A stretch of 64,000 nt of DNA from Escherichia coli (lineage in GTDB: Bacteria > Pseudomonadota > Gammaproteobacteria > Enterobacterales > Enterobacteriaceae). This document shows, piece by piece, positions 21,001-26,395 of the stretch (position 1 is its first letter; each line of letters opens with the position of its first letter). The position numbers were made by a program. The DNA is taken from the NCBI RefSeq assembly GCF_016903815.1, contig NZ_CP069973.1. One strand, given 5' to 3'.

Positions 21001-24000
21001 TAGATGCTGTATCCGGCGCCGACGACAACTATGAACAGAGTCGCTACGCTTAAAGCATTCAGGACATTGTGCTGTTTTGCGTTTTCCGTGGAGATGGAGG
21101 GTTATACCGTCAGAGCTAATAATTTGTCGACTGCATCGCCATCCGCAAGGTAACTGTAGAAGTGTCTTAAGAGAGTGCATTGCGTTGCCCATAACTTAAA
21201 ACAGCTTAGATCCTTGTTCGCCAGAAAGTTTCATCCATTTTCTTCCACCCAGGTTGCGGAAGAACCACTTTTCATCCGTCGTTGACAGATGTGAAGTATG
21301 CGGGAGAAAAAGTGAATATCTAACTGTAATAACTCAGACCGGTACGAGTACTCGGGACGTCTACAATCATTCAGGGCAAAGTGCTAAAATTTCTCTATCC
21401 CGGGATGCCCCTACCAACGCAGCACTCCCGGAGATATCATTACAGCTCTGCAACTGATTTCCGCGACTGAACCGCTCAGTTCCTATCCTTCCAGTTGCCC
21501 TCCTGCCCCCCCTCCCTGCTGTATACCCCGGTACCACAACTCGGGCAGCACTTTTCCCCCTCATAATTTTCGTCACACATCACACAAAACCACTTTCTCA
21601 CCTTCACCGTATAATCCGGAACCGTCATACCCTGCAGATGCAAACGACGGGCCTCTTTCTCTGCCGGGTCAAGCCAGGTGCATCGCAGCAGGATTTTCTC
21701 AGCGACAGTCATCTGGTCATGTTCAAACCACGGTGGTTGTCCGTCATTGCCCCGCTGAAGTGTTAACGGGCATCCACAGGACACACAGCACAAAACGTCC
21801 TGGCGGTTGTGCTTCGCTGCTTCTTTCGCCGTAACAAAATGGCCTTTGCTGTCATTCGCCATATAACAGTTCAGAATTCGCATATTTCCTCCTGAGTTGT
21901 CCGGGGAATACTGAATCCTCCGGTCTGGCAGTGTGTGCAGTACCGCTCCCCATAATAATCGTGGTGACATTGTCTGCAGTGCCAGCTGGCTTTACGCACC
22001 ACGGGTAAGGCATCCGGTACGAATTGCTGCAGACGTTTAATCAACTGTATTTCTCTGCGCTCCGGCCTGACATAAGGGCACTGTTGACCGTGCTCTGTCA
22101 GCCTGTCGTCAGTGTGTTCAAACCAGGGAAGTTCAGTGTCGTATTGCGGATGGTATCTGAGTGCACTGCCACACAAGTGGCAGGTGTAGTTAGCATAAGG
22201 TGCGGCCTGTGCAGTACGGGCGCCCGTCAGACGTCCGTTGCCATCAAGAGCGATAAAGGATTTTGCGTACATAGTCATATTCCTCAGCCGCCAGACGACA
22301 CGCAGGCAACAGCCGTCCCGGTACGGGCAGCGTGGTCAGGGTGTGAATGGCGGTTCAGTTAAAATCTGGACTGGAGTTTGGGTAAAGCAGGCTGGTTGCT
22401 GTTACAGCACTGTGGTTGTCACACAATGGAACACTGACGTAAAAAACAGTCAGTGGGCGAGTGGATACATCGTTGCCGCCAGACAACAACCCATACTTTT
22501 GGTTTGCCGGGTATTGGCGCGCCAGTCGTGCTCAACTCCGGCTACAGCCAAAATTGCGCTCACCGGTGCAGTGAGCTTTGGTATGTTCCTTCGCCAGATA
22601 GTCAGCACGTTCCAGCACCTGCTGAAAGCCAGTGTCATCATCGCGTTCCAGCCACACCGCCGGCCAGGCCGGAAAATGCACCAGCGTGGCATGGCACCCG
22701 ACATCCACTCCCAGGGCACTGCACCACGCCTGTTTAATCATCCCGGCCAGTGATCCCGGAGCACGGTAATCACCGGCACGACACCAGGTATCCCGGTTAA
22801 CCAGCAGCATCAGGTGATAGTGTTTTTTACCTTTGCACTCCCCAAACTCCCGGGCCCAGACGTAATGCAGGGTTGTGGGATGCACGCGTTTACCTTCCCG
22901 ATGCTTACGTTTCTGGTAAGCGTCGATTCGGGCTTTCAGGGCATTGATGAAGCGGGATATCACAGCTGCGTCCGTTGCTGCCGGTACATCCGGGAAACGC
23001 AGGTCAACCCGCAATGCCGTCAGGCGGGGATGAACATTCAGTGCGTGCCGCACCGTCTCACGAATACGTTGCTGCCAGAAGGGGTTGTATTTGTAGGTCA
23101 TGGTTAAATCTCCGTATGGTTCATACGGAATAGCCACGTCGTAAAAAATGCGCAGAGTCCCTGAAGTGACCTCCGGCAGGACACTGTCTCAGGCACTCTG
23201 TGATAACCCGAACGGTCGTCTCCGGACTGACGGTTGAATTTTCAGCGTTGTTTTTTTAATGTAAAAAACCGGTTACGGGTAAGGCTGTGAGGAGGGAGTG
23301 ATGGTGATACGCAAAAAGAAGTGCAGGGACTGTGGAAACGCGATTACTCATAATACAGTGTGTTGCCCGTATTGTGGTTCTGTCGACCCCTTCGGCTATT
23401 ACCGGAATACAGACCGTATCGTTACCATACTGCTGGCACTGATTATTGTGGTCCTGCTGACTACTGTCAGCGTCAGTCAGTGTGTATATACTGTGTAGCT
23501 GGTGAGATAACGGTTCATGTATCCCCTGAGCTGACAGTGTACCGGGTATATTAAGCGTAACCGACAGGTTCTCCTTCATACCATATTAAATTTTTCCAGG
23601 TATTGCCGCTGCCTTATTTCGTCCCATACAGGAAAACTCGTCTGGGTTTCTGACAAATACGCGAAACTCACAGCCCCTCAATATCAACCACACGCTGTAA
23701 GCCGGTAATACCTGAAAATCAGCCTATTACCGCCCGCGCCTCCGTTACCGAACGCTCAGGTGACCAGACTGAAGCCCAGCACGCACTCGTAAAATTTGCG
23801 GTCAGTTCCGTCAGTCAGTGGGCAACCGCAGAGTTACGGGCTTCCAGGTCCACAGGAGTGAGTCTATAACGCGTGTGGGAAATCATTTTTTCTGGCGTTG
23901 ACAGAACGCCTTACGGGCTGCCACTTACCCGGTGTCCCGCAATACAGCCTTAGTGTTCCGTTATCGGGGATCCGGACGCACCGCAACAACCGGGGAAGTA

Positions 24001-26395
24001 TTTCTGGTTAGAGCTGTGTCAAGAGGGATTTCTCAGCCCCTCACTCACCGGCTCAGTCTCAGGGCAGAAGCATTAATACGCTCAGTTCATGTCTTATACA
24101 GGAATGGGCATGGGGGGAGCTGGCGTGTCACTGCTGATTTTACGCATCAGCGTTCATGTATCTGCACTCTGATACAGAATGCTTCACAGCGCTCTGTTAC
24201 CGGAGAGATTTACTCTCTTAGGTTATTCTGGCAAATCCTTTACGTTACTCTCTGATGACTTCTTATATTTATAATACCAATCAGACAACCTTATCCCATC
24301 GGTGATATCAGTCTCCTGCTCGCCAGGAACGGGCTGACTCACTGTAACCACCTCCGAAAACAACTCTGCAATTATCAGAACGCCTGCTTCTCTCCCTGTC
24401 CTCACGAAAACTATCCCCTCTTTATCGCGCGTGCGTGCGGAAGCATCTTTTCGCAACAACCCCCCCGGGATTCCGCTACGGCTCTGCCATCGCAATCCCC
24501 CCGTTTATCTCCGGACAGCCACATTCCCGATTATTTTTTACGTTTCTCCCCGGTTGTTATGCCGGTGAAGGTGGCGCGCTGTTTTCATGACCACACCGGC
24601 TGGTTTAACAACATCCGGAGGAACATTCTCATGGCTACCCCAGTTTCGCTGATGGATGACCAGATGGTCGACATGGCGTTTATCACTCAACTGACCGGCC
24701 TAACCGATAAGTGGTTTGACAAACTCATCAAAGATGGGGGCTTTCCTGCGCCCATCAAAATGGGGCGCAGCTCCCGCTGGCTGAAAAGTGAAGTGGAAGC
24801 CTGGCTGCAGGCGCGTATTGCACAGTCCCGTCCGTAATTTTTAACCACTAACCCTTCGCCCACAGCAGACGCAATCTCCGGCCTGCCGGCGGCGCTCTGC
24901 TGCCTGTTATCCCCCGTGAGGAATATGAAAATGAAACAACAGTATCAGACCCGTTACGAGCTGCTCCATGAAAACTACCAGAAATGGCTGACCGGCTTCA
25001 CCCGGCACGCCGTATCATGGGGCGTGTGTCATCCGAATATCTACTATTTCCATAATCTGACGCCCGGGTGGGTGTCATTCAATGGCGAAAAACCGGAGAT
25101 TGCCATCGTTCCCCAGAGTCTGCACCGGCTGATTTATGGTCCGGACAAACGGAGCTCCCCGTCCCTGGATGATGATCTGGTGGTGAATTTATGCACCAGC
25201 GAACACCTGCTGGTTCATCATCCGATGCTGGAAGGGATCCTGCTGTCTGAATGTGAGCGCCTGAAGCAACATTCTCTGGCAAACAAACTGATCAGCCTCT
25301 TCCGTCAGTTTGGCGGCACGGAGTTACGTCTCAAACTGGTCTGGCTCTGCTGGCTTGACTTAATGACCGGAAACAGCCTTGACGACTGGACGAAAAACCT
25401 GAAACACAAATCAGAAAAAGATCTGGAGCAATGGATCATTGCACGTCAGGGTCAGAGTGAACCACTGACAAATCTGATGGATCAGTACGTGCTTATGGCA
25501 TACCGTACATCGGTTGATGCCGCTCACAGTTGATGTCTGAGAACCACAGGGCTGGCAGCAGAAAACCAGCCCTGTGGTAAAATACAGTAATAGCGGCGTA
25601 CATCAGGCACGCCGCTCACTCGTCCACAGATCATATACGTCATTATACTGCGCGATAACGGAGGGCTTCAGCACCCGGTCATTTCTGAGCGGGTATGAAT
25701 ACCATTGATGATGCGAAGCAGCCACGGGCAGAAACGTTCTTCACAACCAGGTGCCTCCATCTTCACTGCAGTCTGAATGTGCCGGCTTGTTATCCACCAG
25801 AAATGGTATGCTCCGGTACATGCATACCCCGGAGACTATAAACGCACTGAATCATAGCCTCCCACCTCAGCAGGAGGCAGTCAGCTTTCAGGCGGAAAAA
25901 CGTTGCAGTTAAAGATCGTGAGAATCGCTGTTTCGTTGCATAGCAACCCGAACAGTTGTAGTGAAACATTTTACCTGCATCAGCACATGGTCAGGCGCCG
26001 TCTGTATGGCGTGGAATACTGATGTTTCGGCTGATGGCAAGCCTCATTCTCTGTGGAAACAGGGGCGCGCATTAGCTTCTCAACCAGAGAGTGTCACAAA
26101 GACAAATATTGCTGAAAATCGCATTCATCGTTCAGGCGTGAATGCCCGGAGACAAAAGCCGCTGTCCACACAGCCCCCCTCTGACCTGAACAAAAAGCAT
26201 ACACACAACAGGCTCACCTGACCCCGAAAAACCATAACTTCAGCAATACCAGTGACACCAGCACGTTACCTCAGTGCCACATCTTCAGACCGCGATCAAT
26301 CTGAAATGTGACTATCGGGGCAATATCCCTGCTTTGTGGTACACGATAACCAGAAAACATCCCCTGAACCGCCAGCCAGAAAGACTGGCCACAAA

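What the first reader, a model, noticed from the sequence alone, without database searches (positions are those of the whole stretch)
22532..25533. CP4-like regulatory module (YfjJ-like, small Zn-ribbon protein, AlpA, unknown 205-aa protein) with no integrase
Gene content and order resemble the integrase-proximal end of CP4-57/CP4-6-type cryptic prophages (alpA, yfjJ-like), but no tyrosine integrase ORF is present anywhere in the window. The element is therefore probably immobilised, so the dynamin/patatin cargo is fixed unless mobilised in trans or by flanking IS elements.
Basis: partly seen in the sequence, partly recalled or inferred. Interest (0 to 1): 0.3.

Follow-up and report, generated by a model that had tools for sequence, protein, structure and literature searches.

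The report
Integrase-less CP4-44-type island regulatory module
The four genes are real and there is indeed no integrase, but this is the well-known integrase-less "CP4-44/SpLE2" island that sits between cobU and tmaR in most E. coli, so the finding is correct in substance and ordinary.

Summary
The window is E. coli chromosome. Positions 1400-45700 are 100% identical to strain 7/2. The four ORFs exist: a YagK/YfjJ-family protein (Pfam E 1e-47), a 65-aa CxxC...CxxC protein with a hydrophobic tail, an AlpA-family HTH protein, and a conserved 200-aa protein with no known family. The conserved unit is larger than reported. It also holds two DUF7828/zinc-ribbon genes and an hha-like pseudogene, and it lacks the yfjI gene that follows it in close relatives.

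No tyrosine integrase or fragment was found by tblastn with two P4-type integrases (positive control 6e-75), by PGAP annotation of the identical sequence, or by Pfam on six-frame translations of the unannotated gaps. No att-like direct repeats flank the island.

The island (13364-41909) replaces the pocR-pdu operon that some E. coli still carry at this site. It is the site of K-12 CP4-44, which is published as lacking an integrase and showing no detectable excision.

"Integrase-proximal" holds only for CP4-57. In a close complete relative at leuX the same module lies about 30 kb from the integrase. Rescue by a trans integrase or by the flanking IS elements is unlikely. The one point worth noting is that YagK/YfjJ has the fold and invariant motifs of an HUH Rep-type nuclease.

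The parts
13364..41909 (.). The island itself: 28.5 kb at the CP4-44/SpLE2 site between cobU and tmaR, replacing pocR-pduF-pduA..U and the 5' part of pduV.
   Evidence: Homology with the pdu-bearing strain A13 ends at 13363 and resumes at 41910. PGAP annotation of identical sequence.
13219..13362 (-). Remnant of a cobalamin-biosynthesis gene (cbiP-like), marking the left host edge.
   Evidence: PGAP calls it 'cobalamin biosynthesis protein, missing N-terminus'.
13371..13559 (-). IS4-family transposase fragment directly at the left island edge.
   Evidence: PGAP pseudogene. It is shared with K-12 and most E. coli.
14851..15012 (+). Left arm of a 162-nt inverted repeat, formed by the 3' end of an IS66-family remnant (pseudogene 14584-14922).
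   Evidence: the repeat finder I1, 88% complementary. Pfam DDE_Tnp_IS66_C. PGAP.
21476..21883 (-). DUF7828 + Zn_ribbon_11 protein, 135 aa. Part of the conserved module.
   Evidence: Pfam E 7.7e-31 and 7e-18. Collinear in relatives L003 and L004.
21871..22272 (-). Second DUF7828 + Zn_ribbon_11 paralogue, 133 aa, overlapping the first gene by 13 nt.
   Evidence: Pfam E 2.8e-31 and 1.3e-9. PGAP.
22532..23101 (-). YagK/YfjJ-family ('inovirus Gp2 family') protein, a predicted HUH Rep-type nuclease.
23301..23498 (+). 65-aa CxxC...CxxC protein with a hydrophobic C-terminus. In this lineage the C-terminus is altered by a 4-bp GTCA insertion at 23472-23475.
23722..23886 (-). hha/ymoA-like pseudogene with an in-frame stop.
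   Evidence: tblastn with the L003 Hha-domain protein, 93% identity. Translation shows AVAH*LTEL. Relatives carry annotated Hha-family genes here.
24631..24837 (+). AlpA-family HTH protein (excisionase / transcription activator family), 68 aa.
   Evidence: Pfam PF05930 above the gathering score. PHROG 66, E 7e-9. TIGR01764 'excise' is sub-threshold.
24931..25533 (+). orf200, a conserved Enterobacterales protein of unknown function that always follows the alpA-like gene.
25518..31022 (.). 5.5-kb segment that occupies the place of yfjI in relatives. It holds IS100, an older IS21-type remnant and a 383-387-aa hypothetical gene (29874-31037).
   Evidence: Homology with L003 breaks at 25517 and resumes at 31023. 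No YfjI tblastn hit in the window. PGAP.
26396..28349 (-). Intact IS100 (istA, istB), 1954 bp, flanked by a 5-bp target duplication ACAAA. It is a simple, lineage-specific insertion.
   Evidence: It is absent from the same island in O103:H2 strain 129 and in GN02461.
31082..31993 (+). YeeP-type GTPase gene, where the conserved right arm resumes (then dynamin-RdcB-patatin cargo, DUF932, antirestriction, yeeS, yeeT, cbeA, cbtA', yeeW).
   Evidence: PGAP. Homology to L003 and L004.
41677..41838 (-). Right arm of the inverted repeat: an IS66-family (ISEc23-like) 3' fragment at the right island edge.
41910..42092 (+). 3' remnant of pduV, marking the right host edge.
   Evidence: PGAP and Pfam PduV-EutP, E 1.3e-11. 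Aligned to the intact pduV of strain A13.

Best explanation
The region is the surviving control and replication part of a P4-type (CP4-like) genomic-island backbone. It is embedded in the integrase-less island that E. coli carries between cobU and tmaR (CP4-44 in K-12, SpLE2 in O157 Sakai).

In complete relatives the backbone has these parts:
- a P4-type tyrosine integrase next to a tRNA or tmRNA gene;
- an AlpA-family protein that acts as excisionase or activator of excision;
- a YagK/YfjJ protein, here shown to have an HUH Rep-type nuclease fold and motifs;
- YfjI (DUF3987);
- an Hha-like modulator;
- a right arm running from the YeeP GTPase to CbtA/CbeA.

In this window the integrase, the att sites and yfjI are absent and hha is a pseudogene. 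The island occupies the place of the pocR-pdu operon and its edges abut IS fragments. It therefore cannot excise or integrate by its own site-specific machinery (inferred from the missing parts, and consistent with the K-12 experiment). It is inherited vertically and changes only through IS activity, deletion and homologous recombination.

The remaining module genes are intact orphans. Their most likely residual activity is DNA binding and regulation by the AlpA-like protein, with no cognate integrase in cis.

Shown here: gene identities, absence of an integrase and of att repeats, replacement of pdu, and the HUH fold and motifs. Inferred: loss of mobility, and the roles of AlpA and YagK in intact elements.
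For: - Identity and annotation.
- Family assignments.
- No integrase:
  - tblastn with IntA and a leuX P4-type integrase gives nothing better than E 4.3, while IntA detects the leuX integrase at 6e-75 as a positive control.
  - Pfam on six-frame translations of all unannotated gaps finds only IS66 and PduV.
  - PGAP finds none from shiA to gndA.
- No att:
  - There are no direct repeats of 40 nt or more.
  - No 13-mers are shared between the island edges, and no extra tRNA-Asn or tRNA-Leu 3' ends occur.
- Site history:
  - The pdu operon is intact at this site in strain A13, and the homology breakpoints are 13363 and 41910.
  - K-12 CP4-44, Sakai SpLE2, O103:H2 strain 129 and GN02461 carry islands at this site without any integrase in the stretches examined.
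- Published:
  - CP4-44 lacks an integrase and its excision was not detected (PMC3105296).
  - AlpA is required for excision of a CP4-type prophage, and Hha induces CP4-57 excision (PMC5148205).
- Complete relative: tRNA-Leu, integrase, cargo, then the same module.
- yfjI is missing and hha carries a stop.
Against: - The module ORFs are not decaying:
  - dN/dS is 0.1-0.3 against paralogous copies.
  - YagK, AlpA-like and orf200 are protein-identical in three lineages carrying this island, while six substitutions fall in the adjacent non-coding 0.7 kb. This hints at retained function, although the event counts are small and gene conversion between paralogous islands could produce the same pattern.
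- Only the window and sampled relatives were examined, not every genome.
- A recombinase of an unrecognised type cannot be excluded by homology searches.
- Excision was not tested experimentally for this variant.
Confidence: 0.85

Rival explanations
1. The orphan module is still functional in trans. The AlpA-like regulator, and possibly YagK and orf200, act on sister CP4-type islands in the same genome (the module occurs at a median of 2 places per genome). They would modulate excision or replication of those islands, which would explain why the genes stay intact in an immobile island. This is compatible with the best explanation for the island's own immobility.
For: - The module has multiple paralogous copies per genome.
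- dN/dS is 0.1-0.3.
- The proteins are identical across lineages despite non-coding changes.
- AlpA-family proteins control excision in related elements (PMC5148205).
Against: - There is no direct evidence.
- Conservation may reflect recent common ancestry or gene conversion.
- The sister islands of this strain lie outside the window and were not examined.
Confidence: 0.25
2. The module has been domesticated as a regulator of the neighbouring cargo (dynamin-RdcB-patatin, GTPase) or as part of a defence system, and is unrelated to mobility.
For: - In Klebsiella and Yersinia the alpA-orf200-yagK unit borders defence or competition cargo, BREX and T6SS respectively.
- The AlpA-like protein gives weak PADLOC hits to PDC-M06B and mad1.
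Against: - The PADLOC hits are weak (E 5e-4 and 6e-3), and none of the other module proteins matches a defence model.
- The same module accompanies quite different cargo: Ag43, fec, BREX, T6SS and dynamin/patatin. That fits a backbone role rather than a cargo-specific one.
Confidence: 0.1
3. An integrase is present but was missed, either as a highly divergent recombinase inside the island or as an integrase just outside the window that serves the island.
For: - Several island ORFs have no family assignment: orf200, the 383-aa protein, and the 684- and 411-nt hypotheticals.
Against: - Both flanks are conserved core genes: asnV-ldtA-cobTSU and tmaR-yeeA-sbmC.
- There are no att repeats.
- Pfam, PGAP and tblastn are all negative, with a working positive control.
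- Orthologous islands in K-12 and Sakai also lack one, and K-12 shows no excision.
Confidence: 0.03

Closest known systems
Cryptic prophage CP4-44 of E. coli K-12 (and SpLE2 of O157:H7 Sakai)
   Same: - It lies at the same chromosomal site, between cobU and tmaR/yeeX.
- It shares the left junction (cbiP' and IS4' fragments, 99.5% identity over the first 1.6 kb).
- It has the same right arm, yeeS-yeeT-cbeA-cbtA-yeeW, and the same IS66 fragment at the right edge.
- No integrase is present (PMC3105296).
- Sakai SpLE2 also carries the RdcB and patatin genes plus a truncated upstream gene where the dynamin gene lies here.
   Different: - K-12 and Sakai have lost the alpA/YagK module and have a truncated or missing yeeP.
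- K-12 carries flu-yeeR where this strain carries dynamin-RdcB-patatin.
- This variant is longer (28.5 kb against about 13 kb) and holds extra, mostly pseudogenised metabolic genes and ISL3 and IS100 elements.
Cryptic prophage CP4-57 of E. coli K-12 (intA-yfjH-alpA-yfjI-yfjJ ... yfjP ... ypjF)
   Same: - The backbone families are the same: AlpA family, YfjJ/YagK family (36% identity), YeeP/YfjP GTPase, DUF932, antirestriction, RadC-like, DUF987, and the CbeA/CbtA-type toxin-antitoxin pair.
   Different: - CP4-57 has IntA next to ssrA and excises when AlpA is overproduced (Table 1).
- Here there is no integrase, no att and no yfjI.
- Gene order and orientation differ.
- The AlpA-like protein is only weakly similar to K-12 AlpA (E 0.01).
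- orf200, the DUF7828 pair and the hha-like gene are absent from CP4-57.
tRNA-integrated P4-integrase islands of E. coli (e.g. the leuX island of strain 4012, GI-pheV, the pheU island of O145 RM13514)
   Same: - The nearly identical module (96% over 4 kb) is followed by the same GTPase-to-cbtA arm.
- The structure is mosaic and IS-rich (PMC11537424).
   Different: - In strain 4012 the island has the integrase beside tRNA-Leu; in RM13514 only an integrase fragment was seen, beside cadC.
- Both keep yfjI and an annotated Hha-family gene.
- Cargo lies between the integrase and the module, so in strain 4012 the module is about 30 kb from the integrase.
tmRNA-integrated genomic islands of Pseudomonas (I23/I44/I55; bioRxiv 10.1101/2024.08.29.610337)
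   Same: - The core set comprises a tyrosine integrase, AlpA, an inovirus-Gp2-like protein and RadC.
- alpA and the Gp2-like gene lie together at the end opposite the integrase, with cargo between them.
   Different: - They occur in a different genus and have intact integrases and att repeats.
- They move by jumbo-phage transduction.
- No sequence comparison was made here.
HUH Rep-type nucleases (SIRV1 ORF119, parvovirus NS1/Rep, RepB of pMV158, Helitron)
   Same: - It carries an invariant HxH and a YxxK motif in the expected secondary-structure elements.
   Different: - No helicase domain is fused.
- No origin and no nicking activity are known.

Membership tests
CP4-44 / SpLE2 island (cobU-tmaR site) | Located between cobU and tmaR (yeeX). 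| tested here: met
   PGAP annotation of identical sequence. K-12 and Sakai maps.
CP4-44 / SpLE2 island (cobU-tmaR site) | Shares the junction sequences with K-12 CP4-44. | tested here: met
   Window 12700-14342 matches K-12 at 99.5% identity (H76). The IS66 fragment and yoeF/pduV' are at the right edge.
CP4-44 / SpLE2 island (cobU-tmaR site) | Right arm yeeS-yeeT-cbeA-cbtA-yeeW. | tested here: met
   cbtA is frameshifted in this lineage.
CP4-44 / SpLE2 island (cobU-tmaR site) | No integrase. | tested here: met
   Literature.
Functional P4-type integrative island (CP4-57-like) | P4-type tyrosine integrase adjacent to a tRNA or tmRNA gene. | tested here: not met
   tblastn, Pfam and PGAP are all negative. 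The three tRNA-Asn genes are flanked by core genes.
Functional P4-type integrative island (CP4-57-like) | attL/attR direct repeats (a duplicated tRNA 3' end) bounding the element. | tested here: not met
   The edges abut IS4 and IS66 fragments and cbiP'/pduV' remnants. Only tRNA-Asn and tRNA-Leu 3' ends were searched explicitly.
Functional P4-type integrative island (CP4-57-like) | AlpA-family excision regulator. | tested here: met
   PF05930 scores 25.2 bits against a gathering score of 21. PHROG 66.
Functional P4-type integrative island (CP4-57-like) | YfjI (DUF3987) gene in the module. | tested here: not met
   There is no tblastn hit with K-12 or L003 YfjI. The homology gap is 25518-31022.
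AlpA family (PF05930) | Activates integrase expression or acts as excisionase. | not testable with these tools
   Only family membership is shown. The function is taken from CP4-57 and CP4So experiments.
HUH endonuclease superfamily (for the YagK/YfjJ-like protein) | HUH metal-binding motif and catalytic Tyr (YxxK). | tested here: met
   H94, H96, Y168 and K171 are invariant in 19 sequences, down to 21% identity.
HUH endonuclease superfamily (for the YagK/YfjJ-like protein) | Rep-type alpha/beta nuclease fold. | tested here: met
   [not shown]
HUH endonuclease superfamily (for the YagK/YfjJ-like protein) | Site-specific ssDNA nicking and joining activity. | not testable with these tools
   Needs biochemistry.
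Hha/YmoA family | Intact reading frame. | tested here: not met
   There is an in-frame stop, and PGAP does not annotate it in the identical sequence.
Composite transposon (IS-flanked cargo) | Two functional copies of the same IS bracketing the segment. | tested here: not met
   The IS66 pieces are 3' fragments of 160-430 nt, 88% alike, inverted, and without a transposase. ISL3 has an internal stop. IS100 is a single copy.

The most novel reading that the evidence does not exclude
The trio alpA-like / orf200 / YagK(YfjJ) may be a conserved functional core of a very large family of Enterobacterales islands, and by literature of Pseudomonas islands too. On this reading YagK is an active HUH nuclease that nicks the excised or resident island to start rolling-circle-type replication or ssDNA hand-off, and orf200 is an unrecognised partner. 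The copies kept intact in the integrase-less cobU-site island would then persist because they act in trans on sister islands or on incoming elements.
Probability: 0.15. Interest if true: 0.5.

Novelty: already known. Interest (0 to 1): 0.15.

Why it matters
It matters little for this locus. It confirms that the dynamin/patatin cargo sits in a fixed, vertically inherited island of the CP4-44 type. It also shows that such islands should be read as IS-scrambled replacements rather than as prophages that merely lost an integrase.

The practical lesson for annotation is that the alpA/YagK module marks the inner edge of the conserved island backbone, not the integrase end.

The only lead of wider interest is that the widespread, uncharacterised YagK/YfjJ ('inovirus Gp2 family') proteins look like HUH Rep nucleases that are always linked to an AlpA-like gene and a family-less 200-aa protein. 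That makes a replication or nicking step in the life of these islands experimentally testable.

Tried and rejected
It was replaced by stop-to-stop segments of the unannotated gaps joined with X.
3. NCBIfam, PHROGs and PADLOC gave nothing for orf200, the DUF7828 proteins or the 383-aa protein.
4. Rfam at gathering threshold found no RNA family in the ORF-poor 1.1 kb between orf65 and alpA.
5. I first thought IS100 had deleted yfjI. This was rejected: IS100 has an intact 5-bp target duplication, and the same yfjI-less arrangement exists without IS100 in O103:H2 strain 129 and in GN02461.
6. I considered the island-free strain CUVET19-1937 as the ancestral empty site. This was rejected: its deletion (window 13256-41918) removes 108 bp and 9 bp more than the island, so it is a secondary deletion.
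7. I considered integration at tRNA-Asn (asnV). This was rejected: ldtA-cobTSU lie between asnV and the island, and no extra tRNA-Asn 3' end exists.
8. The large genome contigs and metagenome scans were not run. They were not needed for the verdict.

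
Full report
**Where the window comes from**

The window is E. coli chromosome. It runs shiA-amn-yeeN-asnW-yeeO-asnU-cbl-nac-asnV-ldtA-cobTSU, then an island, then tmaR(yeeX)-yeeA-sbmC-dacD-sbcB ... his operon-wzzB-ugd.

Positions 1400-45700 are 100% identical to E. coli strain 7/2 (NZ_CP023820.1). Positions 44489-64000 are 99.99-100% identical to the same strain, apart from a 1.3-kb IS3-family insertion in wzzB. The PGAP annotation of that genome can therefore be read directly onto the window (window coordinate = L001 coordinate + 1399).

**Check of the observation**

All four ORFs exist and are annotated genes.

| Gene | Coordinates | Evidence |
|---|---|---|
| YfjJ-like | 22532-23101 (-), 189 aa from the PGAP start | Pfam YagK_YfjJ_C at E 1.1e-47, plus a sub-threshold REP_ORF2-G2P hit. 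36% identical to K-12 YfjJ. |
| Small protein | 23301-23498 (+), 65 aa | CxxC...CxxC followed by a hydrophobic tail. Only sub-threshold zinc-ribbon hits. |
| AlpA-like | 24631-24837 (+), 68 aa | Shorter than the 92-aa ORF from 24559. Passes Pfam's gathering score for Phage_AlpA (25.2 against 21 bits). Hits PHROG 'excisionase and transcriptional regulator' families. Only weakly similar to K-12 AlpA itself. |
| orf200 | 24931-25533 (+), 200 aa | No Pfam, NCBIfam, PHROG or PADLOC family. A real, conserved protein at 57-63% identity in Yersinia, Klebsiella, Salmonella, Serratia, Hafnia, Pantoea and Cronobacter, with many invariant residues. |

The module occurs in 3755 of 5426 complete E. coli genomes, with a median of two places per genome.

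**The module is larger than reported**

Alignment with two relatives shows one collinear unit of about 4 kb, at 96% identity. The relatives are the leuX island of strain 4012 (L003) and an island of O145:H28 RM13514 that ends beside cadC (L004). The unit contains:

- two overlapping DUF7828 + Zn_ribbon_11 genes (21476-21883 and 21871-22272, both on the - strand);
- YagK (-);
- orf65 (+);
- an Hha-family gene (-);
- the alpA-like gene (+);
- orf200 (+).

In the relatives this unit is followed by yfjI (DUF3987, -) and then by the YeeP-type GTPase and the rest of the right arm.

In the window the hha-like frame carries an in-frame stop. Homology also breaks at 25517 and resumes only at 31023, at the GTPase gene, and no YfjI-like sequence exists anywhere in the window.

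The 5.5 kb in between holds IS100, an older IS21-type remnant and a 383-aa hypothetical gene. IS100 (26396-28349) has an intact 5-bp target duplication, ACAAA. It is absent from the same island in O103:H2 strain 129 and in GN02461. It is therefore a recent simple insertion and not the cause of the yfjI loss.

**The integrase question**

- tblastn of K-12 IntA and of the P4-type integrase of the leuX island gave nothing better than E 4.3. As a positive control, IntA finds the leuX integrase at 6e-75 despite only 36% identity.
- PGAP annotates no integrase or integrase pseudogene from shiA to gndA.
- I translated all unannotated or pseudogene-rich gaps of the island in six frames and scanned them against Pfam. 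Only IS66 transposase and PduV fragments appeared.
- The only 'integrase core' (rve) domains are DDE transposases of IS elements.

**What the island really is**

Some E. coli (strain A13) still carry pocR-pduF-pduA...pduV between cobU and tmaR. Their homology with the window ends at 13363 and resumes at 41910, inside pduV. The island is therefore 13364-41909 (28.5 kb), and it replaces 17.5 kb of cob/pdu DNA.

Its left edge abuts an IS4 fragment and its right edge an IS66 fragment. The only long repeat is a 162-nt inverted pair of IS66 3' ends, 88% alike. There are no direct repeats of 40 nt or more, no 13-mers shared between the edges, and no extra copies of tRNA-Asn or tRNA-Leu 3' ends.

This is the site of K-12 CP4-44 and Sakai SpLE2. 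Those islands share the left junction sequence and the yeeS-yeeT-cbeA-cbtA-yeeW arm, and they also lack an integrase.

Wang et al. (2010) report that CP4-44 lacks an integrase, that its excision was not detected, and that it is 'trapped in the chromosome' (PMC3105296).

One island-free strain (CUVET19-1937) is a secondary deletion that removes slightly more than the island. This shows that turnover at this site proceeds by ordinary deletion and recombination.

**Is the module 'integrase-proximal'?**

It is only in CP4-57, which reads intA-yfjH-alpA-yfjI-yfjJ.

- In strain 4012 the integrase sits beside tRNA-Leu and the module lies about 30 kb away, beyond nan, fec and IS-rich cargo.
- In Klebsiella and Yersinia the genes alpA-(orf)-orf200-yagK form one co-directional block. 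It lies divergent from the GTPase-to-cbtA arm, with BREX or T6SS cargo beyond YagK and no integrase within 10 kb.
- A preprint on Pseudomonas tmRNA islands likewise places alpA and an 'inovirus Gp2-like' gene at the end opposite the integrase, with cargo between (10.1101/2024.08.29.610337).

The module therefore marks the inner edge of the conserved backbone rather than the integrase end.

**How it most likely works**

In intact relatives, AlpA-family proteins act as excisionase or activator. This has been shown for CP4-57 and CP4So, where H-NS or Hha modulate the step.

In the window the integrase, the att sites and yfjI are missing and hha is dead, so the machinery cannot act in cis.

An integrase supplied in trans would have no att sites to use. 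The IS66 fragments lack a transposase and are inverted. ISL3 is a pseudogene and IS100 is a single copy. Mobilisation by flanking IS elements is therefore also unlikely. Movement is left to generalised mechanisms, namely homologous recombination after transduction or conjugation, and deletion.

**Signs of retained function**

Against paralogous copies, dN/dS is 0.1-0.3 for YagK, the alpA-like gene and orf200.

Three lineages carry this island at this site: the window (identical to strain 7/2 here), O103:H2 strain 129 and GN02461. Among them the 2.4 kb of coding sequence shows one substitution and one 4-bp indel (in orf65). The roughly 0.7 kb upstream of the alpA-like gene shows six substitutions and a length-variable poly-C tract.

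This is compatible with continuing selection, for example action in trans on sister islands. The counts are small, however, and gene conversion is an alternative explanation.

**Verdict**

Immobility through lack of an integrase is right, and is already known for this locus. The 'integrase-proximal' reading and the proposed rescue routes are not supported.
- Novelty: already known. Interest: low.
- The only lead of some wider interest is the conserved association of an HUH Rep-like YagK, an AlpA-like protein and orf200.

Noticed in passing
window 61094-62401: A 1.3-kb IS3-family element (OrfA/OrfB with rve domain and ALIL frameshift pseudoknot) interrupts wzzB, the O-antigen chain-length regulator gene. 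The otherwise identical strain 7/2 has an intact wzzB.
   Followed up: partly
window 24457-24465 (about 170 nt upstream of the alpA-like start codon): A poly-C tract differs in length between copies: C7 here, C6 in L003, interrupted in O103:H2 strain 129, and C18 in GN02461. It could be a slipped-strand switch in the alpA promoter region or a sequencing or assembly artefact.
   Followed up: partly
window 23472-23475: A 4-bp GTCA insertion, specific to this lineage, changes the last residues of the 65-aa zinc-ribbon/TM protein (SVSQCVYTV here against SVSVYILCSW in relatives).
   Followed up: yes
window 13219-13362 and 41910-42092; L007: The island replaces the pocR-pduF-pduA..V operon and a cobalamin riboswitch. 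These are still present between cobU and tmaR in E. coli strain A13. Only a cbiP-like remnant and the 3' end of pduV remain here.
   Followed up: yes
window 22532-23101: The 'inovirus Gp2 family' YagK/YfjJ protein has an HUH Rep-type nuclease fold with invariant HxH and YxxK motifs. No experimental work on this family turned up in the full-text searches.
   Followed up: yes
window 14851-15012 and 41677-41838: A 162-nt inverted repeat (88% complementary), made of IS66-family 3' fragments, brackets 26.7 kb of the island. It could support an inversion by homologous recombination.
   Followed up: partly
window 15118-19161: A four-gene metabolic cluster: PfkB kinase, glutamine amidotransferase, DMT transporter and a phosphotriesterase-related protein. 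The first three are a frameshifted, frameshifted and stop-containing pseudogene here, but all four are intact in strain GN02461. This indicates ongoing decay of the left part of the island in this lineage.
   Followed up: partly
window 40731-41104: The toxin gene cbtA is frameshifted in this lineage while the antitoxin gene cbeA is intact (PGAP annotation of the identical sequence).
   Followed up: no
window 21476-22272: Two tandem paralogous genes (DUF7828 + Zn_ribbon_11, 135 and 133 aa) overlap by 13 nt. They are always found next to YagK in the E. coli versions of the module. Their function is unknown and they match no defence-system model.
   Followed up: partly
window 29874-31037: A 383-387-aa protein with no family lies directly upstream of the YeeP-type GTPase. 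It has weak similarity (E 8e-6, 22% identity) to the 304-aa protein that holds the same position in a Klebsiella island (L010).
   Followed up: partly
L010 11772-20600; L011 16057-20597: In Klebsiella and Yersinia relatives the cargo directly downstream of alpA-orf200-yagK is a BREX system and a type VI secretion cluster, respectively. This suggests that the position is a cargo-insertion hotspot.
   Followed up: no
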